Shown piece after piece: positions 3,188 to 63,455 of a stretch of DNA of 64,000 nt. A program made the position numbers and the translations under genes. The stretch lies in IMG/VR virus record IMGVR_UViG_3300043570_003617. One strand, 5' to 3'. Numbering within the stretch: position 1 is the first letter of the stretch; the number at the start of each line of letters is the position of its first letter. The notes beneath the pieces are model-generated. The model was not told where the DNA came from. It saw nothing but the letters and a program-made list of their open reading frames with translations, and ran no database searches. Origin of the DNA: a virus.

Positions 3188-6100
3188 ATGTGGACATACA
3201 ATAGTACTTATAACAAATGGTCATCAACTGATGATAAACTTATTAAAAGTGATTTTGATTTCTTAAAACAAGAATTAAAAGCTACAAGATTTTATGCTAA
3301 ATCTCTTAGTGGTGCTACTTATTTACCTATTAACGGAACCGATGATGTTTATGATATATTGGGAAAATATCAACCAAGAAATTGGTATATTAGTGTAGCT
3401 GGTTCTCCTTATAGTATTACAACAATACCTTCACAACACGCTACTCCAATAGATATTGATACTTCTTATAACTACTATACTAAATATCTATCCGAATATG
3501 GATTAACACTTAAAAATCTATTTACTCCAAATAGATTGATAAAAGATTCAATGGGTAACTACAACTATGTTGATGTTGCTACAACTGATTTATTAGATCT
3601 TTCAATTAGTGATATAAATCTTACTATAGATGGTGTTAGATTAATTAATGGTCAAAAAGTTTTAGTTAAAAACCAAATAAGTAATATTACTTTACTAAAT
3701 ACAATTAATCCAAATACTTATTTCACAGGAAACTATATAATTATTCAAGATTTGGGAGGAACTGTTGAATATGAATATTATAATGAAGAAAATGGAATTT
3801 ATAAATATTCAAATGGGAGTTTAGTTAGAGATGTTGATTTAGATGATTATAAAAGATGTATAAGATATAGCGTTTCTGTTAAATTGGGAACTAATAATAA
3901 AGGTAAACAATTTCACTTATCTAGATTATTAGATGGTTATTATCCAACTACTTCATTAAATCAACCAATTGAATTTAAAGAAAAACACAATTGGATACTA
4001 AGAAATAGAGTTGATTATAATAATTTATTTGAAATAAACTACTATGATGTAATTAAACACGGAACTCAATCTTATTCATTTGATGCTGTTATATATAACA
4101 TACCAACTAGAACAATATCTGTTGGTGAGTTTGGTGTTATATTAAATACACAAGAAGGTAAATCTAATATTATACCAAATAAATATAAAGTTAATCTTAG
4201 AGGTATTTCTGAAACTACTAACTATTATTGGATATGTGGTGATGAAAATACAGTTTTAAAAGTTAGAAAACACGATTTTAATATTGAAAGAATATTGACT
4301 GAAAATGTTCCTTCTTTACAACCGCTTATTGTTAAAACAAATCTTAAATCAATATCATTTTTTAATGATTTAAGAGGTGTTGTTGTTGGTGAGTTGAATA
4401 CAATTTTATACACTAAAAATGGTGGATACAAATGGGAAAGAATTGAACTTGATGATTTTAACACATTTAATTATAACAAAGTTTTATACACTACAAATAG
4501 TAGTTTCTTTATTGCTGGAAATGTTGGTGTTTTAATTGAAATGGTTGAAACTATAGGTGGTTGGACTGCTTATAAAAGAAGAGTTTCTAGAAAAATTGAT
4601 GAGGACGATGAGTACCTATTAGTTGATAATATAAATGATCTGTATAAAACAACTATCTCTACTTGGGGATTGAGTTATTCATATAGCACACAATCTATTC
4701 CTACTGATAAAGAATTACTTTTCTTAGCGTGTAATAATAATATTATATCAGCTTATGATATAAATAATTCTTTTAGTGCAGTAGGCACTGATTTTATTTA
4801 TTTTGATTTTGGAGCTGACTATGGAGATATTAAAAATATAACAAGAAGAAAAGAAACAAATTATTTTTACTTTACTGGAACTGATAAAATAAGTGGTGAA
4901 GATGGTGTTTTTTCATTTAATATTAGTAGTTTTAATTATCTAGGAATTGGTAATTCTTATTCTAATACTACTATTTCCTCAATTCCTGCTACATCTGAGT
5001 ATTCTAATATTTATCCAAATGAAATTTTCGATTACAATGGAGATGAATTATTAATATGTGGTAATACTTCTTTATTGAAATTATCTGGATATAGTCCAAT
5101 TAATTTTACAACATTAGATTCGACATTTGAAGATAAGTTAAAATCTAAACTTTTAGTTTTAGATTATGATATAGCAAGTAAGTTAAATTTCTTCACAGAT
5201 GCTGGTGAATATAGATTACCAAACTCTTTGAATTTTAATAGTGATAATATTACTACAACTGGATCTTATATAGGATTCAAGCCTATTGAACACGCTCTTA
5301 CAACAACCAATACTGGTACTTATTCTGAGAAAAACTGGATAGAGTATTGGAGAGATAGAGAAAAAACTTTTGAATTTTATAATAATAATCCACTTAGTGA
5401 TTCTAGTAAAGTTTTAATATCTACAACATTCTCACATGTTTTTTACGGATCTTCTTTTAGTTTTGTCGGATCTAATATCACTGGTTCTGCTTCACAACTG
5501 GTTAAATTGGCACCTAAAATATTAGATAAAAATTCAAGTAGATATAATGGATATGGTTTGACAGCAATATCAGCACCTACATCAAATCATAATATTTTCT
5601 TATATGATTATTTAATGGTTGTTAGATTATTGTCAAGTACCTTCTCTGCTAATGTTGGTGATGTTATGAAACTTGAATCAGTGGTTGTTGATGGTGAGTT
5701 TGTTATTAACAAAATAAGAACATTCGGTAGTTATAAATACGCTTATATGTTTACTGATTTTAATCAAAATATAATAACTGACTTACAATCAACAACTCAT
5801 AGTGTAACTTTAACTAACTTAAATAAATATACAACATCTGATGAATTAAAATCTAGATTTAATCAACATCCAATATCAACTGGATATAAATTAGATACTG
5901 TTAATTATGTACCAACTAGTTCAACTAAATGGACTTGGGGAATGCCAAACATTTCTGGTAATATTTTTTCTACACTCGGTGTTGGTTTTAATTACACAGC
6001 TGTTGGTGGTAATTTACTTATAAATATAAATTGTTTATCAAATTCTGGAACTAATTATAGTTCAGACTTTGCTACTCTTCCAGTAAATACTTTATGGAAG

Positions 6101-9100
6101 TTTAGTGATGTTTCAGGAAATTATATTTACTACACACAGACATCTCTTGGATCTAATTTACCAATATCATACTATGAGTTTCCACTTATTTATGTGAGTG
6201 GTACTCCTTGGATTCCTTTATCTGGTGATATTATAACAGTTGAAGCTATAGGTCTTGGTGGTTATTTAGGATCAAGTTTATTTGAAATAAGTGCTAGATT
6301 TAATAGCGATACTTCTTACTATAACTTACAAACTTCATTTAATACAGGATCTGTATTACCTATAGTAAATCAAGGATTTACTTATAGTTTCTCAGGTGGT
6401 GTTTCGGCTTCTTCTGTAATTACAAGTTTAACTTATAGTTTCTCAGGTGGTTTTTCATCAAGTAATGTTCCAGTAGTAATTGCTGGTAAAGGAACAATTG
6501 GCTTTAGTGGTGATGGTGGTCCTGCTCCAGATGCTGAATTAGATCGTCCGATGGGATTAGCTTACGACATGAATGGTAATTTGTATATAACAGATACTAA
6601 TAATGGTCGTCTTAGAATGGTTGATCTTAGTACTACAATAAATACTATTTCTGGTAACAATCCAGGTTCTTATGGACCAGATTCAGTTTTTGCCTTCTCT
6701 AGTGATTTATACGAACCTAGTGATGTTGCTATTGATAATATTAATAGAATCTATATATCTACAATTTCTGGAAGTGGATCAGCTCCATATAATGTTGTTA
6801 GAAGAATAGATGTAAGTGGAACAATAGATGTTTACGCTGGAACTCCTGGTATTGGAGGTGCATATGGTGGTAATGGAGTTCCTGCTAGTATGTCTAAATT
6901 AAATTCACCACAGGCTATTTGTATTGACAATAACAATAATATTCTTTATATATGTGACACATATAATAATAAAGTTAGAAAGGTAGACTTAATTGCGGAT
7001 ATTATAACTGATTTTGCTGGTACTGGATTAATTGGTTTTGGTGGTGATGGTGGACTCGCTTTAGGAGCTAGATTAAATCTTCCAACCGGAATCACTGTTG
7101 ATTCAATTGGCGATGTTTATATAGCAGATAGTGGTAATAATAGAATCCGAAAAGTTTCCTTTTTAAGTGGTAGAATAAGTACTGTGGCTGGAAACGGAGC
7201 ACCGGGATATGGTGGTGATGGTATGCCTGCTGTATTAACTAGATTGAATAATCCAACTGGTGTCGCTGTTGATATGGCTGGTAATATGTATATTGCTGAT
7301 AAAGATAATAATAGAATAAGATTAGTTAAACCAAACGGTATAATATCAACATTTACATTAACTCCTGGTATTGAAAAACCTAATAAGGTAATAATTACTC
7401 CAACACAAGATATAGCTTATTCAACTTCGTTTAGTGATCTAGGTGGATCTGTTTATTTTCTTGAAAAACCAGAAGTATCAGCTACTTTATCAGGTCAATT
7501 AACATTTTTACCAGTTGATGGAGACATTTCTACTTTAGAGTTAGATGGTGTTCCATATGTTTATACTTTTAGAAATAGCCCTTCATTACCTGGTGATATA
7601 CAAACTAGTACTACAATCAATAATGTGTTAAACAATCTTTTAACCGGTATAACACCTTCATTATCATCATCAAGTGTTTTAGGTGATTTTATTAATTTAG
7701 AAGCAGCTTCTGGATATGGATCAACACCAAATGGAAATTCAAATTGGTTTTTAAATTTTTATTCAATTGTTACAACACCTGAAACTTTAGCAACTTTAAG
7801 TGGATCAATGAGTTTTCTACCATTAGATGGAGATACTTCTATATTAACTTTAAATGGCACATCAAGTACATATACTTTTAGGGATACACCATCGTTATCA
7901 AATGAGATTCAAATAGTTGGTACAATTAATGGGTGTTTGAATAAACTTATACTTGGTATAACATCATCTGCTATTTCAACATATTTATTATCAACTTCTG
8001 TTACTTCAACAAGCTTTAATTTAATATCTGCTTCTGGATATGGATCAATTCCTAATTCAACAATAGCTACATTGAACCCATCTTGGTCATTATCTTTATC
8101 TTCAACTACTGGTGGTGCTTTTGCTGAAGTTTCAAATGATATGGTTTATACTAGTGGTTTCTTAAAATTTGGATATTCACCAACATATAATTTAATGGAT
8201 TATTTAACAAGTATAAATAACATCGGTGATCCAAATCCAACATTCTATGCTAGTAAAGAATATTTAGCAATGCCGGAATATAGAGGTATACCATTTGGAA
8301 GTTTAACATCATCAACAGCTTATATAGACACTAATGGAATGACTTATTCTGGTGGTGCTATGTCAATGAATGGTAATAAAATACTACTTGGTGATGATTT
8401 AAAATTAGAATGGGATAGTGTATTCATAAATACATTTGTTGATGTTAATATTTATGGATCGGCTACATACTCAACTACTAAATTATTAGTTCTTAATAAA
8501 TATTATGATTTTAATAATTCAGCATATGCTATTGAATTTCATAAAAGACTAAACTTTACACTTGGTGATGCTAATATACTATCTGGTGGATCATTAGACA
8601 TTATTTCAAGAAGACATTTATATCAAATCAGTGAAGATTTACAATATTTAAATAATATACAAAGATCTGAAGGTAAAATAACTGAAGTATATCAAGGACT
8701 AACATATTCAAATTATGAAAATGAACTAAACTTTAAAATACCAACTGATTCTTATGCTAGGATTTTACTTTCAGACGCTGAAACTATTCAATCATTAAGT
8801 TCAATAATATATGTAGATGATAAAAATGAGTTAGCTCTTAATATAACTAAATTATCCAAAGAGTATATTGTTCCAATTTCTAATACTTCTAATTTTGCAG
8901 GAAAATTATATATTTCTTGTTCAGAAAAACATGATTTATTTACTGGAGATTCAGCTGTTTTAGAATTCAATGGAGGAAGTCAATCATCACAAACTCTTAA
9001 TCAACAATATTTTGGATATCATGTTATTACAAAAATAACAGATTTTGACTTTGTTACAGATATTGACTATGGATCTTCTGTGTTGGTTGGAAATGATATT

Positions 9101-10465
9101 GGATCTGTTAAATATATTAAACAAGATCCTTTCTTTAACTATCAACCAGTTGATATAATAGACTATGGTGTTGATCTTAAAGGAGAACAATCAATTGAAT
9201 TATCTGTTGAAAATATTAAATTATCAGGAACTAAATATAGCTTAATAGATGTTGATTATGAAAAATATAGATTTAGATTAATTGATGGATTAAACTTTGA
9301 AACCTTGAATCTTTCTTACCAATGGTTGCTTGAAGCTGAAATATCAGGAGCTGTTATTGGATTAGATGGCGCTGATATTGTTTGGTATAAAGGAACTTGG
9401 GAATCAGGAAGATGGTTTGGTGGTACATGGCAATCAGGTGTTTGGATGTCAGGTGATTGGTATGGTGGTGTTTGGAATTCAAATATAACAACTGATAAGA
9501 TATTATCTGTTAAAGTTGATACAAAAACCAATGATAAAGAACAATCACTATGGTTCGATGGTAGATGGTATGATGGTACTTGGAACAATGGTACTTGGAA
9601 TAACGGTAGATGGTATGGCGGTACTTGGAATAATGGTATGTGGAATAAAGGTATTTGGAATGATGGTACTTGGAACAATGGTTTGTTTGAAGGTGGTATA
9701 TGGGTATTAGGTACTTGGAATTCTGGCACTTTCAATACTAATAGTGAGCCTGCTTATTGGTTAGATGGTCAATGGAAAGGCGGTGACTTTGAAAATGGTA
9801 TGTGGTATAACGGAAACTGGGAACAAAAGAATGGTTTGTCTAGATTCGGAACAAATGCCTTCAACAGTAGAACAGCTACTTGGCATGGTGGTAAATGGAT
9901 TAGTGGTAGTTTCTACTCTAAATTACTAACTGATATTAATGGAAATCCGGATGTTTCTGAAACTCATAAGTACTCTATTTGGAAGACAGGTCAATGGTCA
10001 TCTGGAGAGTGGTATGGTGGTATTGCTTATAATATGGATTTCAAAACAGGAACTTGGTATGGTGGTATATTAGAAGATATTCAAATAGTTGGTATTGACA
10101 CCACTGAAAATACATTTATTCTGAATGGTATATTTAAGTTTAATTTAGGAGATACTATTACTATAATTAATAATCAAGTTAATAATATCTACTCGGTATT
10201 TGGTTCTAATTCTAGTCCAAGTAAATATATAATTTTAAAACAAGACGAAGATATTGTAAACGAAAGAACTATTATTTATGTTAATAGAAATTTATCAGCT
10301 ATTGGATCAGCCGTTGCTTCACCAGTAAATACTGGATTAAGAGTAGTTAGTAGATTTAAGAATCTAAACTGGAAATCAGGTATATGGACAAATGGTATAT
10401 TTGAGAATGGACTTTGGGAAGGTGGTATCTGGTATAATGGTATATTTGAAGCTACTTGGTCATAA
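3188..10465 (+). CDS. giant 2425-aa virion-associated repeat protein with an NHL-repeat propeller, a duplicated ~110-aa domain and a C-terminal Trp-pentapeptide (G-x-W-x-x) repeat region
   Basis: Uninterrupted 7.3 kb ORF. NHL-like blades (DRPMGLAYDMNGNLYITDTNNGRLRMVDL; LNLPTGITVDSIGDVYIADSGNNRIRKV) lie at ~nt 6490-7330. A tandem duplicated domain (ATLSG..FLP.DGD.S.L.L.G..YTFR..PSL) lies at ~7470-8080. Period-5 repeats GTWNNGTWNNGRWYGGTWNNGMWNKG occupy ~9300-10465. Confidence 0.9.
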   Translation: MWTYNSTYNKWSSTDDKLIKSDFDFLKQELKATRFYAKSLSGATYLPINGTDDVYDILGKYQPRNWYISVAGSPYSITTIPSQHATPIDIDTSYNYYTKYLSEYGLTLKNLFTPNRLIKDSMGNYNYVDVATTDLLDLSISDINLTIDGVRLINGQKVLVKNQISNITLLNTINPNTYFTGNYIIIQDLGGTVEYEYYNEENGIYKYSNGSLVRDVDLDDYKRCIRYSVSVKLGTNNKGKQFHLSRLLDGYYPTTSLNQPIEFKEKHNWILRNRVDYNNLFEINYYDVIKHGTQSYSFDAVIYNIPTRTISVGEFGVILNTQEGKSNIIPNKYKVNLRGISETTNYYWICGDENTVLKVRKHDFNIERILTENVPSLQPLIVKTNLKSISFFNDLRGVVVGELNTILYTKNGGYKWERIELDDFNTFNYNKVLYTTNSSFFIAGNVGVLIEMVETIGGWTAYKRRVSRKIDEDDEYLLVDNINDLYKTTISTWGLSYSYSTQSIPTDKELLFLACNNNIISAYDINNSFSAVGTDFIYFDFGADYGDIKNITRRKETNYFYFTGTDKISGEDGVFSFNISSFNYLGIGNSYSNTTISSIPATSEYSNIYPNEIFDYNGDELLICGNTSLLKLSGYSPINFTTLDSTFEDKLKSKLLVLDYDIASKLNFFTDAGEYRLPNSLNFNSDNITTTGSYIGFKPIEHALTTTNTGTYSEKNWIEYWRDREKTFEFYNNNPLSDSSKVLISTTFSHVFYGSSFSFVGSNITGSASQLVKLAPKILDKNSSRYNGYGLTAISAPTSNHNIFLYDYLMVVRLLSSTFSANVGDVMKLESVVVDGEFVINKIRTFGSYKYAYMFTDFNQNIITDLQSTTHSVTLTNLNKYTTSDELKSRFNQHPISTGYKLDTVNYVPTSSTKWTWGMPNISGNIFSTLGVGFNYTAVGGNLLININCLSNSGTNYSSDFATLPVNTLWKFSDVSGNYIYYTQTSLGSNLPISYYEFPLIYVSGTPWIPLSGDIITVEAIGLGGYLGSSLFEISARFNSDTSYYNLQTSFNTGSVLPIVNQGFTYSFSGGVSASSVITSLTYSFSGGFSSSNVPVVIAGKGTIGFSGDGGPAPDAELDRPMGLAYDMNGNLYITDTNNGRLRMVDLSTTINTISGNNPGSYGPDSVFAFSSDLYEPSDVAIDNINRIYISTISGSGSAPYNVVRRIDVSGTIDVYAGTPGIGGAYGGNGVPASMSKLNSPQAICIDNNNNILYICDTYNNKVRKVDLIADIITDFAGTGLIGFGGDGGLALGARLNLPTGITVDSIGDVYIADSGNNRIRKVSFLSGRISTVAGNGAPGYGGDGMPAVLTRLNNPTGVAVDMAGNMYIADKDNNRIRLVKPNGIISTFTLTPGIEKPNKVIITPTQDIAYSTSFSDLGGSVYFLEKPEVSATLSGQLTFLPVDGDISTLELDGVPYVYTFRNSPSLPGDIQTSTTINNVLNNLLTGITPSLSSSSVLGDFINLEAASGYGSTPNGNSNWFLNFYSIVTTPETLATLSGSMSFLPLDGDTSILTLNGTSSTYTFRDTPSLSNEIQIVGTINGCLNKLILGITSSAISTYLLSTSVTSTSFNLISASGYGSIPNSTIATLNPSWSLSLSSTTGGAFAEVSNDMVYTSGFLKFGYSPTYNLMDYLTSINNIGDPNPTFYASKEYLAMPEYRGIPFGSLTSSTAYIDTNGMTYSGGAMSMNGNKILLGDDLKLEWDSVFINTFVDVNIYGSATYSTTKLLVLNKYYDFNNSAYAIEFHKRLNFTLGDANILSGGSLDIISRRHLYQISEDLQYLNNIQRSEGKITEVYQGLTYSNYENELNFKIPTDSYARILLSDAETIQSLSSIIYVDDKNELALNITKLSKEYIVPISNTSNFAGKLYISCSEKHDLFTGDSAVLEFNGGSQSSQTLNQQYFGYHVITKITDFDFVTDIDYGSSVLVGNDIGSVKYIKQDPFFNYQPVDIIDYGVDLKGEQSIELSVENIKLSGTKYSLIDVDYEKYRFRLIDGLNFETLNLSYQWLLEAEISGAVIGLDGADIVWYKGTWESGRWFGGTWQSGVWMSGDWYGGVWNSNITTDKILSVKVDTKTNDKEQSLWFDGRWYDGTWNNGTWNNGRWYGGTWNNGMWNKGIWNDGTWNNGLFEGGIWVLGTWNSGTFNTNSEPAYWLDGQWKGGDFENGMWYNGNWEQKNGLSRFGTNAFNSRTATWHGGKWISGSFYSKLLTDINGNPDVSETHKYSIWKTGQWSSGEWYGGIAYNMDFKTGTWYGGILEDIQIVGIDTTENTFILNGIFKFNLGDTITIINNQVNNIYSVFGSNSSPSKYIILKQDEDIVNERTIIYVNRNLSAIGSAVASPVNTGLRVVSRFKNLNWKSGIWTNGIFENGLWEGGIWYNGIFEATWS

Positions 10466-10476
10466 ATTATAATTTA

Positions 10477-10493
10477 AATTTAATATATACAAT
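10477..10493 (+). promoter_or_regulatory. putative promoter AATTTAATATATACAAT abutting the ATG
   Basis: Identical 17-mer also abuts the ATG of 19097; a very similar box abuts 20812. Confidence 0.5.
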
Positions 10494-10895
10494 ATGATTA
10501 AAAAGTATTCACAATTCATAAAAGAAGCTGATGAGGTAGAAACACCTGAAACAGAAAATCAAGAAGTTGCTAAACCTCAATCTGACAATAAATATACAGA
10601 GTTAAAAGAGGAAGTTAAATCTATGATTGAAAAAACTATTGATAAAAGCGGTGGTGATTTCGAATCATTTAAAGATAAATTTGTTAAATCACCAGAAGAC
10701 ACTAAGATTGAAGGATTTATAAATGATTCAGATATCTATGAGTTTTACTTAAAGTTTAGAAATGATATTGATGAATTATTAAATAGTGTTAAATACTTTG
10801 ATGAAGTACCAAGTGAGTCTAATACTTTTGGATTATATGATTATATCATAAGTGGTACTGAAAGAGCTGTTATTGAAGCAGTTAAGACACTTTAG
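10494..10895 (+). CDS. candidate packaged internal protein with T4-like capsid-targeting N-terminus (MIKKYSQFIKE)
   Basis: N-terminus resembles the T4 IPI/IPII/IPIII capsid-targeting sequence MKTYQEFIAE, including an I-x-E cleavage-site-like ending. One of at least 6-7 such ORFs in the window. Confidence 0.6.
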   Translation: MIKKYSQFIKEADEVETPETENQEVAKPQSDNKYTELKEEVKSMIEKTIDKSGGDFESFKDKFVKSPEDTKIEGFINDSDIYEFYLKFRNDIDELLNSVKYFDEVPSESNTFGLYDYIISGTERAVIEAVKTL

Positions 10896-15828: not shown

Positions 15829-17019
15829 ATGATTTTTATTTACAATAGATTTTTGAGACCAATAACATCAAGTGATAATAATATTCAAGTGTTGGATAAT
15901 ACTGGTTCTGTGGTTTATACAATAAATCCATTTTCTGTAGGAACTACAAGAGTTTCAAATAATGTATTAGAAATTTCTTTTAAGAGTGGTAAAACAATAT
16001 CTATTCCATTTTCTTCAATTAATGAGTCTAAAACAGCTTTAAGTTTATTTCAATCACAACTTGATACACTTTTAGAAAAGACTCCAACATTAATGGATGT
16101 TCAAATTAAAAATTATATTGATAGTATATCTTCTTCGGGAACCTCAGGTAAAAGTGGAACTTCAGGCGTTGATGGTAATTTCTACGGATCATCGGGATCA
16201 TCGGGAACTTCAGGTGTTAATGGATCAAGTGGATCTTCTGGTACTTCTGGATCATCAGGTACAAGTGGATCTTCTGGTACTTCTGGATCATCAGGTACAA
16301 GTGGATCTTCTGGTACTTCTGGATCTTCTGGTACTTCTGGATCATCAGGCACAAGTGGATCTTCTGGTATATCAGGTATGAGTGGATCTTCCGGTACATC
16401 AGGTATGAGTGGATCTTCCGGTACATCAGGTATGAGTGGGTCTTCTGGTACATCAGGTATGAGTGGATCATCAGGTACAAGTGGATCTTCTGGGTCATCA
16501 GGTACAAGTGGATCTTCTGGGTCATCAGGTACAAGTGGATCTTCTGGTTCAAGTGGGTCATCTGGGACATCAGGTTCTGCTGGTACATCTGGTACATCAC
16601 CTTCAACCAATTTAACACTTAGTGGTGATTTAGTTGTTAGTGGTCAATCAACATTTACAGAAGTAACGGAAGTTATAAATTCAACACCATCAGGTGCTAC
16701 GGCTTCAACAGTAACTTATGACTTTTCTTCTGGTAATATTTGGTATCATGGAACTGCATCACAGAATTATATAGCAAATTTTATAAATATACCTACTACA
16801 AATTTTAGAACAATAACTACAACTGTTGTTATTGCACAAGGCGGAACTGCTTATATACCTACGACCGTGAAGATTAATGGAACTGCTTCTACTGTTAAAT
16901 GGTCTGGTGGAACTGCATCAGGTAGTGCTAATAAAGTTGATATAATTGGATTTAGTTTTATCTATACAAATAGTGGTATTCCTACTCAAGTTTTAGGTCA
17001 AATAAATTCATTTAATTAA
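15829..17019 (+). CDS. collagen-like (Gly-X-Y) repeat protein, probable fibre component
   Basis: About 160 residues of (GSSGTS)n / GMSGSSGTS triplet repeats, followed by a globular Thr-rich C-terminal domain. Confidence 0.8.
   Translation: MIFIYNRFLRPITSSDNNIQVLDNTGSVVYTINPFSVGTTRVSNNVLEISFKSGKTISIPFSSINESKTALSLFQSQLDTLLEKTPTLMDVQIKNYIDSISSSGTSGKSGTSGVDGNFYGSSGSSGTSGVNGSSGSSGTSGSSGTSGSSGTSGSSGTSGSSGTSGSSGTSGSSGTSGSSGISGMSGSSGTSGMSGSSGTSGMSGSSGTSGMSGSSGTSGSSGSSGTSGSSGSSGTSGSSGSSGSSGTSGSAGTSGTSPSTNLTLSGDLVVSGQSTFTEVTEVINSTPSGATASTVTYDFSSGNIWYHGTASQNYIANFINIPTTNFRTITTTVVIAQGGTAYIPTTVKINGTASTVKWSGGTASGSANKVDIIGFSFIYTNSGIPTQVLGQINSFN
16130..16615. repeat. tandem nucleotide repeats (18/36-nt units) encoding the collagen-like tract
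   Basis: Near-identical units ggatcttctggtacttctggatcatcaggtacaagt are repeated. They generate spurious ORFs in other frames and on the opposite strand. Confidence 0.85.
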
Positions 17020-17020
17020 T

Positions 17021-19078
17021 ATGTTATCAAGAATTAGCAATTTTTCAGGACCTTTATCAATTCTATTCAAAAGAAATTTAGATCAAAATAATTTGATTTT
17101 AGATTTACGATCAAAAATTGGACTATCTGAAATAACTTGGCAAGACCAATCATCATATAATAACGACGCTACTTTTTATGGTTCAGTTGTTACGGATTCC
17201 ATAAATGGTGAAATTGTTCTTTCATTAGATGGTGTAAATGAATACATATTTCCAACAAATGGATTTGGTAATATTTTAGACACAGGGTTTACTTATGAAG
17301 TTTGGGCTCGTCCGGGTACCTCATCAAATGGAGTTCTTTTATTAGAGACTGGGCAAGCAGCAACAAGTAGTCTTTGGAATGACAATCAAATGGCTTTTGT
17401 TTCAAATAAAATTAATGTAGGATTATTTGATCCAAATGACTTCACACCTAATTATATTACAGGTCCTACATTCTCGGTTGACACATGGTATAATATAGTA
17501 ATGACATATGATGGCACCACACTAATTGAATATGTTAATGGTGTTTCAGTTGGTAGTAGTATTGGTGTTAAGTCAAATCCATCAAGTACTTATTTATCTT
17601 TAGGTAGACCAGGTTTGGCTACTAATTACCTTGGTGGTTCAACAGGTCATTTTAAAGGTTATATAGGTGTTTGGAGAATATGGGATGGCCCTCTTGATAA
17701 CACTGAAATTCTTTTAAATTATAACACAAACAGAGAGGCATATGATACATTTATTACAAATAACACAATACTTTATTTAGATGCTGGATCTGCGTCATCT
17801 TATCCAGGTTCTGGTAGTGTTTGGTATGATTTAAGTGTACAGGATAATGATGCTACACTGACAAATACAACATATAATAGTATAAATGGTGGTTATTTTA
17901 CATTTAATGGTGTTGTAAATAGCAAAGGAGCATTGACATCATCCAAATATAATGTGGTTTACTCTGGTAAAACTGTATTTGTTACTGCTTATCTATCAAG
18001 TAACATGATTAATAATACTTATAGAGCAATTTTAGGTTCCTCAGCGGGTGTTAGAAATTTTAACTTTTATTTATATAGAAATATCAGTGGTAATTATCAG
18101 TTGCATTACTCGGCTAATAGTGTTGGTGGATTGAGTGATACTTTAACTTCTTTTACACCAGGTACTTGGTTCACTGCTGCAGTGACACAAACTACTGGTG
18201 GTTTAATGAGTTATTACTTTAATGGTCAACCAGTTGGTACTGGAACCGCTGCCTTTTCTCAATATTTATCAGGAAGTACTGAGAATGTTGCTGTTGCTGA
18301 TAATTTTTGGGATGGTAGAATTGGTTTGGCTTCTGTTTATAAAGTTGCTTTATCATCTTCTGAGATATTACAAAATCACAATGGTGTTAAGAATAGATAT
18401 TCCAATTTTGTAGATACTAACTTAGTACTTTATTTTAATCCTAATAAAGATTTAAATTATCCAAATTCTATTAATGATTTAAGTGGTAATTCATTAAATG
18501 GTACTTTATCAAATAACACATTTACGGCACCATATCTAACTTTTAATGGATCAAGTTCAACAGTATTGGTATCTGATAATTCATTATTAGAACCAGGAAC
18601 TGGTGATTTCAGTGTTGAAGTTTGGGTTAATTATTCGGTAATTGCGGGTGGTAGTAGATGTGTGCTTAGTAAAACAGATGGGCCTAATAGTGTGGAATGG
18701 GGATATGGTATTAGAACTAACTCATCCGGTTTGACCTATATGGAAGTTGGTAATGGAACTACAACATTAAATTCACCAACATATACCGTAACAACAAACA
18801 CTTGGTATCAAATTGTTGGTGTATTTACTAATGTTGCGTCAAACTCAATTGCACTTTATGTAAATGGAGTGAGTCAAGGTACTTCAACTTCTCATTCATT
18901 TACCAGTGTTAAAAATACAACACATAATATATCAATCGGTTCATTTGATAACAATATTGGTGGTTATGGTCAGTGGTTTAACGGAAAAATGGGTATAGTG
19001 AGAATTTATAACTCTGCTTTAACTGCTTCTGATGTTTCTAAAAACTTTGAAGCTGATAGAGACATTTATGAAATTTAA
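17021..19078 (+). CDS. LamG/concanavalin-A-like lectin repeat protein (probable fibre or receptor-binding)
   Basis: Three copies of the jelly-roll signature: DTWYNIVMTYDGTTLIEYVNGVSVG, GTWFTAAVTQTTGGLMSYYFNGQPVG and NTWYQIVGVFTNVASNSIALYVNGVSQG. Confidence 0.55.
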   Translation: MLSRISNFSGPLSILFKRNLDQNNLILDLRSKIGLSEITWQDQSSYNNDATFYGSVVTDSINGEIVLSLDGVNEYIFPTNGFGNILDTGFTYEVWARPGTSSNGVLLLETGQAATSSLWNDNQMAFVSNKINVGLFDPNDFTPNYITGPTFSVDTWYNIVMTYDGTTLIEYVNGVSVGSSIGVKSNPSSTYLSLGRPGLATNYLGGSTGHFKGYIGVWRIWDGPLDNTEILLNYNTNREAYDTFITNNTILYLDAGSASSYPGSGSVWYDLSVQDNDATLTNTTYNSINGGYFTFNGVVNSKGALTSSKYNVVYSGKTVFVTAYLSSNMINNTYRAILGSSAGVRNFNFYLYRNISGNYQLHYSANSVGGLSDTLTSFTPGTWFTAAVTQTTGGLMSYYFNGQPVGTGTAAFSQYLSGSTENVAVADNFWDGRIGLASVYKVALSSSEILQNHNGVKNRYSNFVDTNLVLYFNPNKDLNYPNSINDLSGNSLNGTLSNNTFTAPYLTFNGSSSTVLVSDNSLLEPGTGDFSVEVWVNYSVIAGGSRCVLSKTDGPNSVEWGYGIRTNSSGLTYMEVGNGTTTLNSPTYTVTTNTWYQIVGVFTNVASNSIALYVNGVSQGTSTSHSFTSVKNTTHNISIGSFDNNIGGYGQWFNGKMGIVRIYNSALTASDVSKNFEADRDIYEI

Positions 19079-19079
19079 C

Positions 19080-19096
19080 AATTTAATATATACAAT
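19080..19096 (+). promoter_or_regulatory. putative promoter AATTTAATATATACAAT abutting the ATG
   Basis: 17-mer identical to the one upstream of 10494. Confidence 0.5.
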
Positions 19097-20053
19097 ATGA
19101 TTAAAAGATATTTAGAATTTATAAAAGAAAATCTCAACGGTTTTAATTCACTTGGTGAGTGGATTGAATCTCTTATGGAGGATGAGTATGTTAGAAACAT
19201 TATAGCTCGTTATACAAAAGATTCTGACCATTCTATTGACTTATCAAATGCTATTAATATCTTAGATGATAAAACTAAACAAGAGATAAAAGCTCAAATA
19301 GACCATTATTTAGAAAACGGTATTGAGGAAAAAGAACCTCAGTTTTTAGTTTCTACAGATTTAGAACCTTTAACAGAATCTGAAATTACAGTTGCTGGAA
19401 AAGGTATATTTATTTCTTTCTTAAAATCATTAACAAGTTTAGGTCAAAAAGAGGTTCAACCATCTTGGGAAAAATGTCCTGATGGATTCTTATTATTTTA
19501 TCATTATCCTAATTTACAATCAGAAGATGTTAAACAAGTATTCTCAAGATTTAAGTCTTTAACTAGATATTTAGATATAGTTGATTATCAAAAGAACGAG
19601 ACAGATCTTTACTTTGGTATTAAATGTGATGGTAATTTCGAATACGGTGTTCATTATGATGTGTTAAAACCAATTGGTCAGTTTAGATTATCACAATCTG
19701 TTATTAAATGGATTTGTCAAATAGAATCTAAATCAGCTTCTTCATTAAAGAAAGAATTAGTTAATTTAACTTTAGCTGATGTTATTACATTAGGTAAGAT
19801 TAAAACAGATATGTTAACATTTAATCCAGGATATCACGAAAAGAAATTATCACCTATGTTAAAAGATAGAGTTATTTCATTTGGTTACTTTGGTGTTGGT
19901 AGATGGGATAATGGTAAAATTGATGAAGGTGAATTAATGAATGTTAAAAATAACTTTACTACTTGGTTACTTACTAAAAGATGGGGAAGTAAAGTTTTAA
20001 TAAGTGTTAAACCAAATTCTTTTTGGTTATACTTACATTTGAAATTAAAGTAA
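19097..20053 (+). CDS. candidate packaged internal protein with T4-like capsid-targeting N-terminus (MIKRYLEFIKE)
   Basis: CTS-like N-terminus. 318 aa. Confidence 0.6.
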   Translation: MIKRYLEFIKENLNGFNSLGEWIESLMEDEYVRNIIARYTKDSDHSIDLSNAINILDDKTKQEIKAQIDHYLENGIEEKEPQFLVSTDLEPLTESEITVAGKGIFISFLKSLTSLGQKEVQPSWEKCPDGFLLFYHYPNLQSEDVKQVFSRFKSLTRYLDIVDYQKNETDLYFGIKCDGNFEYGVHYDVLKPIGQFRLSQSVIKWICQIESKSASSLKKELVNLTLADVITLGKIKTDMLTFNPGYHEKKLSPMLKDRVISFGYFGVGRWDNGKIDEGELMNVKNNFTTWLLTKRWGSKVLISVKPNSFWLYLHLKLK

Positions 20054-22605: not shown

Positions 22606-24354
22606 ATGCTTATTAGTGAATTAGGAATTAGAGGATTCAAAAGTTATGGTAATAACGAACAAGTCTTAAAATTAAATACAGAAAAAGGAGAATTAATTCT
22701 TCTTGTTGGAAATAACGGAGCAGGTAAATCATCTTTGTTAGATTCCTTCGATTACACACTTTATGGTAAAGTTAGAGGTCGCAAAAAGAAATGGGCCACT
22801 TTATCAACACTTCCAAATAGAATTAATGGTGAACTACTTAATAGAATTAAATTTAATTCTTTAGGTACTGATGTTGAAATTAAACGAGGTATTTCACCTG
22901 GTGTCTTAGAACTTACCGAGAATGGAGTAGTCAACGAAAGAGCCGGTAAAGGTAATGTTGATGAAAAGATTGAAAAGTATATCGGTATGGATATCGAAAC
23001 TTTCAAATCTTTTATTTCTATGTCAATAAACGACTTCAAAAATTTTATTTCATTATCAAATGAAGAAAAACAACTTCTTTTAGATAAGTTATTCAACTTA
23101 GAAGTTATTAATATTTTAAATGGTATCTTAAAAGATATCGCTAAAAACAATAAAGTTAGAGCCGCTTCTTTTGATGCTGAAATTAGAACTTTAGATGATT
23201 CAATTTTATCTATTCAAAGGTCTATTGATAAAGCTATTGAAAGACAAAAAGAAGAAGCTAGATTAGCTTTAGAAAGAGAGAAAGAAGATATTCAAGCTGA
23301 GATTGATAGAATCACTGGTGAAATGAATTCTAAAAAAGATGATTATAAATCTTTAAGAGATAAAATTGATAAAATCAAAGAAAAAGAAACTGAACTAAAC
23401 AATGAATTGGATAATGAGAAAAAGCAATATATTAATACACAAAATGACATTAAAAATGTACAACGAGAAATTGACTTATATGATTCTGGTAAATGTCCCA
23501 CTTGTAGAACAGATTTTAATTCTGATCACTTTGTTGCGTTAAGAGATTCTTTTGTTGAAAAGAAATTAGGTTTTGAAAATATCAAACTTGAGATTGAGGC
23601 CAATATTACTAAAGTTAAAGAAAGACAAGTTAAATTAAAATCTTTATCTGAATCTACAACAACTGCTTTTAATGATTTAAGTTATTTATTAAAGAGTTAC
23701 AAATCAGATATTGATAAACTAGTTCAAAAGAAAGCTAGTCAAACTGTACCGGTTAATACAACTCCTTCTGTTAATATTCAAGAGTTTCAAAATACAATTG
23801 AAGAACTTGAAGATAAGAAAATAGTAAGTAAAGATAATATCACCGTATGTAAAGAAAAGGATCTTTACTACAAAGAGATGAATCGAATCTTTGGTGAAGA
23901 TGGTGTTAAGAAATCTATCATCTCTGGAATAATCAAACCAATAAATCACTTTATTGCTGAGAATATTAAAAAGATGAGTTTACCATTTGAAGTAAGATTA
24001 GATGAGACTTTTACTGCTGAGATTAAACAATTAGGTTCACCAATTGAACATGATTCTTTATCAACTGGTGAAACTAAAAAAGTTAATATTAGTATCTTAA
24101 TTGCTTACTTGAAATTGATTAGAACTAAGCGTCATATCAATATACTCTTCTTAGATGAGGTTTTCTCATCAATTGATATCGAAGGTATAGATTCTATTTT
24201 GGCTCTCTTAAAATCGTTTGCAAATGATTATAACATCAATATCTTTGTTGTCCATCATGCTATTTTGAACCAAGAGATGTTTGATAGAATATTGAAGATT
24301 AATAAAGAGGTTTTCTCTTCAATAGAAGAAGTTGATTTAAGTTATGGTGGTTAA
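22606..24354 (+). CDS. SbcC/Rad50-like recombination ATPase (T4 gp46-like)
   Basis: N-terminal Walker A GNNGAGKSSLLD, long coiled coil, CPTC zinc hook, C-terminal signature LSTGETKKV and D-loop LFLDEVFSSID. Same architecture as T4 gp46, which also has CPTC. Confidence 0.75.
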   Translation: MLISELGIRGFKSYGNNEQVLKLNTEKGELILLVGNNGAGKSSLLDSFDYTLYGKVRGRKKKWATLSTLPNRINGELLNRIKFNSLGTDVEIKRGISPGVLELTENGVVNERAGKGNVDEKIEKYIGMDIETFKSFISMSINDFKNFISLSNEEKQLLLDKLFNLEVINILNGILKDIAKNNKVRAASFDAEIRTLDDSILSIQRSIDKAIERQKEEARLALEREKEDIQAEIDRITGEMNSKKDDYKSLRDKIDKIKEKETELNNELDNEKKQYINTQNDIKNVQREIDLYDSGKCPTCRTDFNSDHFVALRDSFVEKKLGFENIKLEIEANITKVKERQVKLKSLSESTTTAFNDLSYLLKSYKSDIDKLVQKKASQTVPVNTTPSVNIQEFQNTIEELEDKKIVSKDNITVCKEKDLYYKEMNRIFGEDGVKKSIISGIIKPINHFIAENIKKMSLPFEVRLDETFTAEIKQLGSPIEHDSLSTGETKKVNISILIAYLKLIRTKRHINILFLDEVFSSIDIEGIDSILALLKSFANDYNINIFVVHHAILNQEMFDRILKINKEVFSSIEEVDLSYGG

Positions 24355-61625: not shown

Positions 61626-63455
61626 ATGATTGAACAACTAAAAGAACAAATTATTAAAGCGAATGACGCTTATAGATTGGGACAACCAATCATATCTGAT
61701 ACTAAGTATGACCAATTAGTTGAAGAATTATCTTTATTATCACCAGATGATGAATTACTTACAAAAGTAGGTGTTGAAATCACTGATGAAACTCGTAAAG
61801 GTAAACTACCTATTGAAATGGCTTCGATGAATAAAATCAAATCAATGAATGATGTTGATGATTGGTCTCGTCTTAAAGGTATTTCTAAAAAAGAAATGGT
61901 TATCATCACACCTAAATATGATGGACTTTCATTATGTGTTAATGAAATGACATCTGAAGCTTGGACTCGTGGTGATGGTGAGTTTGGTCAAAAATCAAGT
62001 GAACATTACTCTTTAATTCAAAATCACTTAAACTTAGAAAAAGATTCATTTAGATTTACTTATGGTGAAGTAATGATTCCTAAGCAAGTTTTTATTGACA
62101 AATTCTCTACTGACTTTGCAAATCCTCGTAACTTAGTTGCCGGTTTGTTAAACTCTAAAACTGTAAGTGAGTCTTTAAAAGATTGTCAGTATATTAAATA
62201 CGGTGCCGTTTGTAATACAATATTCGACACTAAACAAGAAGTTCTTAACGAACTTAATAAAGGTCAAAAAATTAAAGTACAATATTATATATGTGAACTT
62301 GGTGATTTATCAGAAGGTTTACTTATTGAATTATTCCATAAATTTTCAACTGAATTTGAAATTGATGGTTTAATCATCGAACTTAATGATTTAAGTTTAC
62401 AAAATAAATTAGGTCGCGAGACTTCATCAAACAATCCTGTTTGGGCTCGCGCATTCAAACACCCAAGTTTTGAACAATCTGCTGAAACAGATGTTATCGG
62501 AATTTCTTGGAATATCTCTAAACAAGGTTTATTAAAACCAATTCTACACATCACTCCTGTTAAATTAGATGGTGTTACAGTGTCTAACGTGACTGGTAAC
62601 AACGCCAGATTCGTAAAAGACTTAGGACTTGGTGTAGGAGCTAAAGTTGTCGTAAAACGCTCTGGAATGGTTATTCCAATCATTGCTGATGTTATCACTC
62701 CAGTTGAATTTATTCAACCTACAATCGAAGGTGTTGAAGTAGATTGGAATGAAGCAGGTATCGAGTTAATTACTTTAACTGAAACTGACGACCAAAAGTT
62801 AAAAAAGATTGTTGCTTTCTTTGAAATATTAGAATCTGACAATGTGTCAGAAGGAGTTATCACTCAATTATGGGAAGCTGGTTACAAAACAATCAAAGAT
62901 ATTCTTACTCTTAAAACTTCTGACTTAGAGAAGATTGACCGTTTTGGTAAGAGAAAAGCTGATATTGTTTATAAGTCTATTCAAAAGTCTGTTAGTAATG
63001 TCCAGTTGTCTAAACTACAACATGCTACAGGTATCTTCAAAGGATTAGGTTCTAAGAAATTAGTTCTTTTAGAAGACTTCAAAACTAAACCTAGTGTTGA
63101 CCAAGTAATGTCGATTGAAGGATTTGCTGAAGTATCTGCTAAATCATACATTGACTCATATGACATATTCTTTGATTTTATTAAAGATTTACCTGTCACA
63201 ATTGTCGAAAAAGTTCAAGCTGTTAAAGTTGGCACAGACCTTGAGGGTAAATCATTTGTCTTTACCGGAGTTCGTAGACCAGATTTAGAATCTGATATTG
63301 AATCTCGTGGTGGAAAAATTGGTTCTGGTGTATCAAAAACAACAACTTACCTTGTAATGAAGTCGATTGGTAGTGGTTCTTCTAAAGAGAAGAAAGCCAT
63401 TGACTTGGGTGTTGAAGTGATTACAGTAGAACAATTAGAAAAATTATTAAACTAA
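61626..63455 (+). CDS. ligA: NAD-dependent DNA ligase (LigA)
   Basis: Adenylation motif KYDGLS (KxDG), OB/HhH architecture, and a C-terminal BRCT-like segment GKSFVFTGVRRPDLESDIESRGGKIGSGVSKTTTYLV. 609 aa. Confidence 0.85.
   Translation: MIEQLKEQIIKANDAYRLGQPIISDTKYDQLVEELSLLSPDDELLTKVGVEITDETRKGKLPIEMASMNKIKSMNDVDDWSRLKGISKKEMVIITPKYDGLSLCVNEMTSEAWTRGDGEFGQKSSEHYSLIQNHLNLEKDSFRFTYGEVMIPKQVFIDKFSTDFANPRNLVAGLLNSKTVSESLKDCQYIKYGAVCNTIFDTKQEVLNELNKGQKIKVQYYICELGDLSEGLLIELFHKFSTEFEIDGLIIELNDLSLQNKLGRETSSNNPVWARAFKHPSFEQSAETDVIGISWNISKQGLLKPILHITPVKLDGVTVSNVTGNNARFVKDLGLGVGAKVVVKRSGMVIPIIADVITPVEFIQPTIEGVEVDWNEAGIELITLTETDDQKLKKIVAFFEILESDNVSEGVITQLWEAGYKTIKDILTLKTSDLEKIDRFGKRKADIVYKSIQKSVSNVQLSKLQHATGIFKGLGSKKLVLLEDFKTKPSVDQVMSIEGFAEVSAKSYIDSYDIFFDFIKDLPVTIVEKVQAVKVGTDLEGKSFVFTGVRRPDLESDIESRGGKIGSGVSKTTTYLVMKSIGSGSSKEKKAIDLGVEVITVEQLEKLLN

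What the first reader, a model, noticed from the sequence alone, without database searches (positions are those of the whole stretch)
6490..7330. NHL-repeat beta-propeller embedded in a phage giant structural protein
Four to six blades with the NHL signature (…P.G.a.D..Gn.YiaD..NnRIR…) lie in the middle of the 2425-aa protein. They are followed by an internally duplicated ~110-aa domain (7470..8080), then a Trp-solenoid. NHL propellers are ligand and protein-interaction modules that are rare in phage fibres. This may be the receptor-recognition module.
Basis: seen in the sequence. Interest (0 to 1): 0.55.

Follow-up and report, generated by a model that had tools for sequence, protein, structure and literature searches.

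The report
Optional NHL propeller cassette, megaphage protein
A real six-bladed NHL beta-propeller sits inside a 2425-residue protein of a huge (about 600 kb class) phage, as part of an optional 600-residue plug-in that near-identical relatives lack, so it is most likely an accessory surface-binding module, not the phage's indispensable receptor binder.

Summary
Pfam finds NHL (E 1e-24) and teneurin-type NHL (E 6e-22). AlphaFold2 (pLDDT above 95 here) gives a closed six-bladed propeller at aa 1094-1425 (window 6467-7462). It matches solved NHL propellers (teneurin-like protein, E 7e-25; Pizza6, TM 0.87).

New here:
- The host protein belongs to a family of at least 588 relatives, found among deposited phages only in the largest genomes (634-642 kb, Mahaphage clade).
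- Its backbone is about 1700 aa. The propeller and two duplicated domains form a ~600-aa cassette at one insertion hot spot.
- The hot spot is a 14-21-aa loop in 80 of 106 homologues.
- Forms with and without the cassette interleave on the backbone tree. One pair is 92.5-97.8% identical in DNA apart from a clean 1815-nt in-frame indel.
- The cassette is under purifying selection but evolves 2-3.5 times faster than the backbone.
- The duplicated domain has no Pfam family and recurs in the exposed central region of giant flagellins.

Virion location and binding function are inferred, not shown. Verdict: a new variant of a known theme, of moderate interest.

The parts
3188..10465 (+). Giant ORF of 2425 aa. 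It belongs to a conserved protein family of Mahaphage-clade huge phages with an unannotated backbone.
   Evidence: At least 588 homologues, on contigs up to 642 kb. tblastn hits only in the 634-, 636- and 642-kb phages.
3188..5887 (+). Conserved N-terminal backbone (aa 1-900). It contains a Ycf48-like (BNR-type) propeller segment around aa 383-459 (4334..4564).
   Evidence: 65-81% identity among homologues. Family profile against PDB sequences: Ycf48-like protein, E 5e-8. dN/dS 0.17-0.18.
5888..6298 (+). Insertion hot spot V1 (aa 901-1037). It holds a 113-aa lineage-specific insert of unknown fold.
   Evidence: The site is 13-27 aa in most homologues, 130-137 aa in the closest relatives and 189-223 aa in others.
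6299..6328 (+). Invariant backbone anchor FNxxTxYYNL (aa 1038-1047), lying between hot spots V1 and V2.
   Evidence: Invariant columns in the 21-sequence alignment A1.
6329..6466 (+). Left end of cassette V2 (aa 1048-1093). A beta-hairpin linker carrying two TYSFSGG repeats.
   Evidence: Strands in the AF2 model, pLDDT 68-81.
6467..7462 (+). Six-bladed NHL beta-propeller (aa 1094-1425). Blade starts are at about aa 1100, 1157, 1219, 1279, 1336 and 1393. The strand at aa 1096-1099 closes blade 6.
   Evidence: Pfam NHL and TEN_NHL. AF2 pLDDT above 95. Foldseek PDB hits: 9ifo E 7e-25, Pizza6 TM 0.87, NHLRC2, TRIM71. Bacterial NHL proteins are 40-50% identical.
7463..7792 (+). Duplicated alpha/beta domain, copy 1 (aa 1426-1535). 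The motif is LPxDGDT..L.LNG..TYTF..PSL..EIQI.GTI..L.NL..ITSS...GYGSIPN..NW.
   Evidence: Self-BLAST E 1e-25. Alignment A3. The profile finds 391 proteins; the top outside hits are giant flagellins. No Pfam family matches.
7793..8137 (+). Duplicated alpha/beta domain, copy 2 (aa 1536-1650). Its end (..YNLT.G..F.TTDYDMI in relatives) echoes the left anchor.
8138..10462 (+). Conserved C-terminal backbone (aa 1651-2425). It holds mixed alpha/beta domains, then the Trp-ladder beta-helix (aa ~2051-2304, 9338..10099) and a C-terminal domain.

Best explanation
The segment encodes a genuine closed six-bladed NHL beta-propeller. It is not a fixed part of its host protein. Together with a short hairpin linker and two copies of a ~110-aa alpha/beta domain, it forms a ~600-aa cassette. 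The cassette is inserted into one loop (hot spot V2) of a conserved ~1700-aa protein of the largest known phages (Mahaphage clade, predicted Bacteroidota hosts). That backbone carries a Ycf48-like propeller near its N-terminus and a Trp-ladder parallel beta-helix near its C-terminus. It has at least three sites where extra domains come and go. The most likely working model (inferred, not shown) is as follows. The backbone is a virion-exposed adhesin or fibre-like protein that reaches the outside on the particle at lysis. The cassette is an optional outward-facing binding module: the propeller face binds a host-surface or environmental ligand, probably a glycan or surface protein. The two flagellin-outer-domain-like units act as exposed spacers or additional binding surfaces. 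Gain, loss or exchange of the cassette between otherwise near-identical phages would change adsorption specificity or avidity without touching the core function of the backbone.
For: Shown:
- NHL profile matches and propeller fold.
- Backbone/cassette split. V2 is 14-21 aa in 80 homologues, 575-625 aa in 25, 408 aa in one and 143 aa in one; the last two carry only duplicated-domain copies.
- NHL-bearing forms are not monophyletic on the backbone tree: 13 separate pure clades.
- P0017 (with cassette) and P0036 (without) are 92.5% and 97.8% identical in DNA on either side of a clean in-frame 1815-nt indel.
- The cassette occurs on 25 independent protein clusters from JGI, ENA and Logan assemblies, so it is not an assembly artefact.
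- dN/dS is 0.29-0.46 in the NHL and duplicated domains against 0.12-0.18 in the backbone. The cassette is therefore constrained but evolves faster. Identity to P0013 is 42% in the NHL part against 67-68% in the backbone.
- GC3 is equal in cassette and backbone (0.119 against 0.118), so the cassette is long resident in this lineage.

Supporting the inference of an exposed virion protein:
- All recognisable folds are extracellular types. Many of the closest NHL relatives are bacterial proteins carrying T9SS sorting domains. The duplicated domain recurs in the exposed central region of giant flagellins. The beta-helix resembles autotransporter adhesins and tailspikes.
- There is no signal peptide or transmembrane segment.
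- The gene lies upstream of a collagen-like tail-fibre gene and a LamG 'virion structural protein' gene on the same strand.
- There are weak but repeated PHROG 'virion structural protein' hits. Another family member's insert matches phrog_37948, 'virion structural protein', at E 2.7e-24.
- Precedents exist. The phi11 Gp45 receptor-binding protein uses a five-bladed propeller (PMC4901313). Beta-propeller lectins occur on eCIS fibres (PMC12923769).
Against: - There is no direct evidence of virion location. The backbone has no Pfam family and only marginal PHROG matches. No cultured relative or proteome is available.
- No ligand is known, and no binding-site residues were identified.
- The residues conserved across the phage NHL copies are the generic structural NHL motif, which says nothing about function.
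- A higher dN/dS could reflect relaxed constraint and not adaptation.
- The gene is separated from the tail-fibre-like genes by two small opposite-strand ORFs and two unannotated genes.
- The structural models are predictions built on shallow alignments (46 and 32 sequences).
Confidence: 0.55

Rival explanations
1. The NHL propeller is the primary, essential receptor-binding domain of a tail fibre.
For: It is a propeller fold with precedent in phage receptor-binding proteins (PMC4901313). It evolves faster than the backbone. Tail-fibre-like genes lie nearby.
Against: It is absent from 80 of 106 homologues, including backbones 91-97% identical at protein level. It lies in the middle of the protein, not at the distal C-terminus. 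Both termini are the conserved parts. It could still be the primary binder in the phages that carry it.
Confidence: 0.17
2. The giant protein is not on the virion. It would act inside the infected cell or be released as a free protein, with the NHL propeller used as a protein- or RNA-binding platform as in TRIM-NHL proteins.
For: No strong structural-protein homology was found. Foldseek also matches the RNA-binding TRIM71 and Lin41 NHL domains. PhoH and DNA-metabolism genes are in the neighbourhood.
Against: The closest sequence relatives are bacterial extracytoplasmic or secreted NHL proteins at 40-50% identity, against 18-24% for TRIM-NHL. The accompanying flagellin-outer-domain-like repeats and adhesin-type beta-helix are extracellular folds. 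The gene neighbourhood points the other way.
Confidence: 0.15
3. The propeller is an enzyme. It could be a lactonase or arylesterase of the SGL/YvrE type, or a polysaccharide-degrading propeller, acting as a depolymerase on the particle.
For: JGI's automatic name is 'sugar lactone lactonase YvrE'. There is a weak Arylesterase match (E 0.0027, 18.3 bits, below the cut-off of 21.3). PF08450 (SGL) is precomputed for some orthologues.
Against: In this protein only NHL and TEN_NHL pass their cut-offs, and SGL does not appear even at E up to 1. The best structural matches are non-catalytic NHL propellers. No conserved polar cluster beyond the structural motif was seen.
Confidence: 0.07
4. The cassette is functionless passenger DNA, a neutral insertion tolerated in a surface loop.
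For: It is dispensable in most relatives and is gained or lost cleanly.
Against: The reading frame is intact across 25 divergent versions. dN/dS is 0.29-0.46, well below 1. The fold is predicted with very high confidence. The structural NHL residues are conserved down to 25-42% identity.
Confidence: 0.04

Closest known systems
Bacterial extracytoplasmic NHL-repeat propellers (PF01436; PknD-sensor / Pizza type, T9SS-secreted NHL proteins) and the bacterial teneurin-like protein NHL domain (PDB 9ifo)
   Same: Same repeat signature and the same six-bladed closed propeller. Sequence identity is 40-50% to many bacterial proteins and 33% to 9ifo; TM is 0.87 to Pizza6.
   Different: Here the domain is embedded in the middle of a phage protein with no signal peptide, no T9SS tail and no YD-shell. 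It is flanked by a different set of domains.
Staphylococcus phage phi11 receptor-binding protein Gp45 (five-bladed propeller platform binding GlcNAc on teichoic acid; PMC4901313), and beta-propeller lectins on eCIS fibres (PMC12923769)
   Same: A propeller acts as the ligand-binding head of a phage-tail-type adhesion protein. This is the functional analogy proposed here.
   Different: No sequence relationship was found. Those propellers have five blades or are lectin-type, and they are terminal and obligatory. This one is NHL-type, six-bladed, internal and optional.
Accessory display domains on phage structural proteins (Ig-like, BACON and Hoc-type decoration domains)
   Same: These are optional, fast-evolving, exposed modules added to conserved structural proteins. 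This comparison rests on my own knowledge of the literature and was not checked here.
   Different: The fold differs (propeller plus flagellin-like domains) and the unit is much larger (600 aa). It is inserted within a loop, not appended.
Hypervariable outer-domain region of giant flagellins (PMC6248924)
   Same: The duplicated ~110-aa domain matches 4-7 tandem units (by envelope count) in the central region of proteins that have Flagellin_N and, in two of four, Flagellin_C ends. Whole-protein E is 5e-36, per-unit scores are 25-31 bits, and the YTF / vqIgGT / L.NL..aI motif is shared.
   Different: The phage protein has no flagellin N- or C-terminal helices. Only about 10 of the 149 hits other than family member P0019 look like flagellins. 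Neither Pfam nor the PDB covers the domain.
Autotransporter adhesin passenger beta-helices (TibA, Ag43, pertactin) and phage tailspike beta-helices
   Different: The ladder is built from G-x-W pentapeptide units. Sequence identity is 7-15%. Sequence-level similarity is instead to MORN-like repeats (RSP1 at E 0.024; a 'PI4P 5-kinase-like' protein of phage PspYZU05). There is no autotransporter barrel.

Membership tests
NHL repeat / six-bladed NHL beta-propeller (Pfam PF01436) | Profile match above the curated gathering score | tested here: met
   85.7 bits against a cut-off of 20, E 9.9e-25, 4 stretches.
NHL repeat / six-bladed NHL beta-propeller (Pfam PF01436) | Five to six tandem ~40-60-aa repeats folding into a closed six-bladed propeller | tested here: met
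   The AF2 model has six four-stranded blades at pLDDT above 95. Blade 6 is completed by the N-terminal strand. Foldseek to the PDB gives NHL propellers, TM up to 0.87. This is a prediction, not a solved structure.
Teneurin-type NHL domain (PF25021) / teneurin-like toxin architecture | TEN_NHL profile match | tested here: met
   78.5 bits against a cut-off of 27.1, aa 1108-1324. Best PDB fold hit is 9ifo, a teneurin-like protein.
Teneurin-type NHL domain (PF25021) / teneurin-like toxin architecture | Accompanying YD/RHS shell and plug domains | tested here: not met
   No YD, RHS or Tox families in the Pfam scan at E up to 1. It shares the domain but not the teneurin architecture.
SGL / YvrE gluconolactonase propellers (PF08450) | Profile match in this protein | tested here: not met
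   Not listed at E up to 1. Arylesterase scores 18.3 bits, below its cut-off of 21.3. The JGI name 'sugar lactone lactonase YvrE' is automatic.
SGL / YvrE gluconolactonase propellers (PF08450) | Catalytic metal ligands in the central channel | not tested
   Model coordinates could not be inspected residue by residue.
Phage tail fibre / receptor-binding protein | Physical presence on the virion tail | not testable with these tools
   No cultured relative or proteome is available. Only weak PHROG 'virion structural protein' hits were found.
Phage tail fibre / receptor-binding protein | Homology to a known fibre or baseplate-attachment domain | tested here: not met
   No tail-category PHROG or Pfam match for the backbone. 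No sequence match to solved fibres.
Phage tail fibre / receptor-binding protein | Location in a tail / structural gene module | tested here: inconclusive
   A collagen-like tail-fibre gene (15829..17019) and a LamG virion protein gene (17021..19078) lie 5-7 kb downstream on the same strand. Unannotated and opposite-strand ORFs intervene, and PhoH lies upstream. The synteny is conserved in relatives.
Flagellin | Flagellin_N and Flagellin_C terminal helical domains | tested here: not met
   Both are absent from the phage protein. Only the central repeat unit is shared.
Diversity-generating retroelement target | Template/variable repeat pair near the variable region | tested here: not met
   No such direct repeat in the window involves 6300-8200.
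Ycf48 / BNR-type propeller (N-terminal backbone) | Sequence-profile match to solved Ycf48-like proteins | tested here: inconclusive
   E 5e-8, but only over about 77 positions (aa ~383-459), two stretches. One homologue hits PF14870 at 3e-10. The full propeller was not modelled.

The most novel reading that the evidence does not exclude
The ~1700-aa backbone is a dedicated plug-in display scaffold of the largest known phages. It would have at least three loop hot spots into which whole bacterial surface-protein modules are inserted, deleted or exchanged between nearly identical phages. The modules include an NHL propeller, flagellin outer-domain units and a domain shared with another giant virion protein. 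This would be a cassette-based way of retargeting adsorption, distinct from C-terminal fibre swapping and from DGR mutagenesis. The duplicated unit would also define a new domain family shared by giant flagellins and megaphage proteins.
Probability: 0.3. Interest if true: 0.6.

Novelty: new variant of a known kind. Interest (0 to 1): 0.42.

Why it matters
Nothing is known experimentally about how the 500-700 kb phages recognise their hosts. This work picks out one conserved, very large protein family of that clade. It shows that the family carries exchangeable extracellular-type binding modules, with natural with/without pairs that differ almost only by the cassette. That gives a concrete candidate for adsorption and host-range studies. 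It also gives a defined soluble domain (aa 1094-1425) to express and test. The presence/absence marker can be correlated with host assignments in metagenomes. Finally, the work flags an unannotated ~110-aa domain shared with the exposed region of giant flagellins.

Tried and rejected
- The word-indexed homologue search with the duplicated domain (aa 1426-1655) returned nothing, not even the protein itself. I treated this as a tool artefact and replaced it with the exhaustive profile search.
- Recent horizontal acquisition of the cassette was rejected. The raised GC (0.345 against 0.263) comes entirely from codon positions 1 and 2; GC3 is the same.
- A specific bacterial donor could not be named. 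Hits at 40-50% identity come from many phyla.
- A DGR or other repeat-driven diversification mechanism was rejected, because no TR/VR-like repeat was found.
- A single ancestral gain defining a subclade was rejected, because cassette-bearing forms are not monophyletic.
- The Trp repeat was first considered MORN-like, from the RSP1 hit (E 0.024) and a MORN-type phage protein. The high-confidence model instead gives a beta-helix. Both leads are reported.
- The two ORFs that follow the giant gene and the LamG gene share a 50-nt stretch. As proteins they are alike only in their first 11 residues, so they are not paralogous chaperones.
- PDB sequence searches with the neighbouring 908-aa and 384-aa proteins and with the duplicated-domain profile gave nothing significant.
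- Source names for non-flagellin carriers of the duplicated domain were uninformative.
- No tRNA genes are present in the window.
Full report
**1. The observation**

The window has about 28% G+C. The ORF at 3188..10465 (+) encodes 2425 aa. The flagged interval 6490..7330 corresponds to aa ~1102-1381.

- Pfam reports NHL (PF01436) at E 9.9e-25, 85.7 bits against a cut-off of 20, in four stretches. It also reports the teneurin-type NHL domain (PF25021) at E 6.2e-22, aa 1108-1324.
- I predicted aa 1029-1660 with a 46-row alignment of phage orthologues and bacterial NHL proteins. The model has mean pLDDT 86.9, above 95 over the repeats.
- The order of strands gives five canonical blades. These start near aa 1100, 1157, 1219, 1279 and 1336, and each ends in an x-I-x-T-x-A-G strand.
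- A sixth blade (aa 1393-1425) is degenerate in sequence. Its missing fourth strand is supplied by VVIA at aa 1096-1099. This is a classic velcro closure.
- Foldseek against the PDB returns only NHL propellers at the top: a bacterial teneurin-like protein (9ifo, 33% identity, E 6.6e-25), the designed Pizza6 proteins (TM 0.87 on the target), NHLRC2, TRIM71, Thin and the teneurins.

The domain is aa 1094-1425, window 6467..7462.

**2.

- *The duplication is real.* Aa 1426-1535 and aa 1536-1650 are 53% identical over 88 aa (E 1e-25). Each is predicted as a small alpha/beta unit.
- *The Trp repeat does not follow directly.* About 400 aa of mixed domains come first. I modelled aa 1650-2425 with 32 homologues. 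The model has pLDDT 80.6 overall and above 90 in the repeat.
- *At sequence level the repeat also resembles MORN-type repeats.* Hits are RSP1 at E 0.024 and a 'PI4P 5-kinase-like' protein of Pseudomonas phage PspYZU05.

**3. What the host protein is**

- The only nucleotide match among 50,697 deposited phage records is the 642-kb uncultured phage LR756502 (73% identity).
- By tblastn, the backbone is found only in LR745206 (634 kb), LR756502 (642 kb) and, at 30% identity, LR756504 (636 kb).
- These are the curated largest phage genomes of Al-Shayeb et al. 2020. They belong to the Mahaphage clade and have predicted Bacteroidetes hosts (PMC7162821).
- The protein database holds at least 588 relatives. 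Some are on contigs of 481-642 kb.
- The neighbourhood is phage-like and conserved: PhoH upstream, and 908-aa and 384-aa proteins downstream. A collagen-like tail-fibre protein (15829..17019) and a triple LamG protein follow; the LamG protein matches phrog_8510 'virion structural protein'.
- The backbone itself has no Pfam family. Its PHROG hits to a 'virion structural protein' family are marginal: 7 of 21 members, best E 7e-5.
- A family profile against PDB sequences picks up a Ycf48-like (BNR-type) propeller segment at aa ~383-459 (E 5e-8).
- There is no signal peptide and no hydrophobic segment. The maximum 19-residue Kyte-Doolittle mean is 1.42.

**4. The main new result: the propeller is part of an optional cassette**

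Alignment of 21 diverse homologues shows that the conserved parts are aa 1-900 and aa 1651-2425, plus a ten-residue invariant anchor, FNxxTxYYNL, at aa 1038-1047.

- Between the anchor and the C-terminal backbone lies hot spot V2. Among 106 homologues with recognisable anchors it has these lengths:

| V2 length | Number of homologues |
|---|---|
| 14-21 aa | 80 |
| 575-625 aa (linker + NHL + two duplicated domains) | 25 |
| 408 aa (P0056) | 1 |

- P0030, which lacked the strict anchor pattern and was measured separately, has 143 aa at V2. P0056 and P0030 carry only duplicated-domain copies.
- A second hot spot, V1 (aa 901-1037), is 13-27 aa in most homologues. It is 130-137 aa in this protein's closest relatives and 189-223 aa in others.
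- A third site, inside the N-terminal part, is expanded in P0021, P0035, P0112 and P0117.
- P0117's insert there matches phrog_37948, 'virion structural protein', at E 2.7e-24.

On a neighbour-joining tree of the C-terminal backbone, the 25 NHL-bearing proteins fall into 13 separate pure clades. These clades interleave with cassette-less forms.

- P0017 (2339 aa, with cassette) and P0036 (1733 aa, without) are 91% and 97% identical in the flanking protein.
- At DNA level, 1-2818 aligns at 92.5% and 4634-7020 at 97.8%. The 1815 nt between them are cleanly absent, in frame. The two come from different samples.
- In relatives, the right end of the cassette (..TYNLT.G..FVTTDYDMI) repeats the left anchor (..YYNLQ.SV.V). 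The short forms keep a few residues from each edge. This is compatible with deletion or exchange between short repeats. That mechanism is inference.

**5. Evolutionary behaviour**

Nei-Gojobori dN/dS of the query against two orthologues:

| Region | vs P0002 | vs P0009 |
|---|---|---|
| N-terminal backbone | 0.18 | 0.17 |
| C-terminal backbone | 0.12 | 0.13 |
| NHL propeller | 0.31 | 0.45 |
| Duplicated domains | 0.29 | 0.46 |
| V1 | 0.39 | 0.35 |

- The cassette is therefore under purifying selection, so it is functional. It evolves two to three and a half times faster than the backbone.
- Identity to P0013 is 42% in the NHL part against 67-68% in the backbone.
- The raised G+C of the cassette comes from codon positions 1 and 2. 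GC3 is 0.119 against 0.118, so there is no sign of recent import.
- No TR/VR-type repeat lies near the cassette.

**6. Relatives of the modules**

- *NHL part.* It is 40-50% identical to thousands of bacterial NHL proteins from many phyla. Many of these carry the T9SS sorting domain of Bacteroidota. No donor can be named.
- *NHL in other phages.* Among deposited phage genomes the NHL part has no significant match (best E 0.06). BFVD holds viral propellers, including an 'NHL protein' of an uncultured myovirus and several giant-virus proteins. They share 18% identity or less, best E 5e-11. NHL propellers in phages are thus rare but not unheard of.
- *Duplicated domain.* A profile of 22 copies was searched against 1.84 billion representative proteins. 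It found 391 proteins at E up to 1e-3, many with 3-9 tandem units.
- *Link to giant flagellins.* Of the ten outside hits scanned, four (P0241, P0244, P0246, P0250) have Flagellin_N, and two of these also Flagellin_C. The repeats fill their central region. That region forms the exposed outer domains of the filament; this last point is from the literature and my own knowledge (giant flagellins: PMC6248924, abstract only).
- *Strength of the match.* Per-unit scores are 25-31 bits, with a coherent shared motif: YTF, vqIgGT, L.NL..aI, G..i.ltA.
- *Limits.* Only about 10 of the 149 hits other than family member P0019 have flagellin termini. The rest are unannotated. Neither Pfam nor PDB sequences cover this unit.

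**7. Interpretation**

- *Shown:* the propeller, the duplication, the beta-helix prediction, the backbone/cassette architecture, the presence/absence polymorphism and the selection pattern.
- *Inferred:* the protein is exposed on the virion and the cassette binds something.

The inference rests on four points. Every recognisable fold is of an extracellular type. There is no export signal, so the particle is the obvious route to the outside. The gene neighbourhood is structural. And there is precedent for propellers as binding heads: phi11 Gp45 (PMC4901313) and eCIS fibre lectins (PMC12923769).

Most relatives do without the cassette, including near-identical ones. It therefore cannot be the indispensable receptor binder of this protein family. 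An accessory or alternative adhesion module fits best.

Rivals are listed with their weights: an essential receptor-binding domain, a non-virion protein, an enzyme, and a neutral passenger.

**8. Verdict**

The propeller itself is an ordinary member of the NHL family. What is unusual is its setting: a swappable internal cassette in a conserved giant protein of the largest phages. I rate this a new variant of a known kind, with interest 0.42.

Noticed in passing
window 10477-10526 and 19080-19129: A 50-nt stretch is 90% identical at two places. Each copy covers the 17 nt upstream and the first 11 codons (MIKKYSQFIKE / MIKRYLEFIKE) of an ORF. One ORF follows the giant gene and the other follows the LamG gene. 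The rest of the two proteins is unrelated. This may be a shared translation-initiation or promoter element.
   Followed up: partly
window 32634-37244 (- strand), aa ~1010-1470 of the 1536-aa ORF: A second giant ORF in the window carries the same kind of G-x-W/F aromatic repeat as the Trp beta-helix of the studied protein (BLASTP E 1e-9). It has an internal DNA repeat at 33482-33630. It is probably a paralogous beta-helix module. It has no PHROG match.
   Followed up: partly
window 4334-4564 (aa ~383-459 of the giant ORF): The conserved N-terminal backbone contains a Ycf48-like (BNR-type) propeller segment (E 5e-8 to PDB Ycf48-like proteins). The protein therefore carries two unrelated propellers.
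   Followed up: partly
window 5888-6298 (aa 901-1037): A second lineage-specific insert (hot spot V1, 113 extra residues) is found only in the closest orthologues. Its fold and function are unknown. Other relatives carry unrelated 190-220-aa inserts at the same site.
   Followed up: no
window 16141-16648: There is a 9/18-nt periodic DNA repeat (24 overlapping copies) inside the collagen-like tail-fibre gene 15829..17019 (Pfam Collagen E 3e-21).
   Followed up: no
window 28968-32603, 53982-58037 and 58068-61271 (all - strand): Three further very large ORFs (1211, 1351 and 1067 aa) have no functional annotation. Only the 1067-aa one matches a PHROG (phrog_29329, unknown function, E 5e-92).
   Followed up: no
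P0117 aa 825-1052 (homologue, N-terminal insertion site): A relative carries a different insert at a third hot spot. It matches phrog_37948, 'virion structural protein' (E 2.7e-24). This shows the scaffold accepts several kinds of module.
   Followed up: partly
window 7463-8152 as protein query: The word-indexed homologue search returned no hit at all for the duplicated domain, not even the parent protein. The exhaustive HMM search found 391. This is probably an index or composition artefact of the tool for this Ser/Thr-rich sequence.
   Followed up: yes
whole window: ARAGORN found no tRNA genes in these 64 kb, although huge phages often carry many. The window also encodes an SbcC-like nuclease subunit (22606..24354) and an NAD-dependent DNA ligase (61626..63455).
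   Followed up: no
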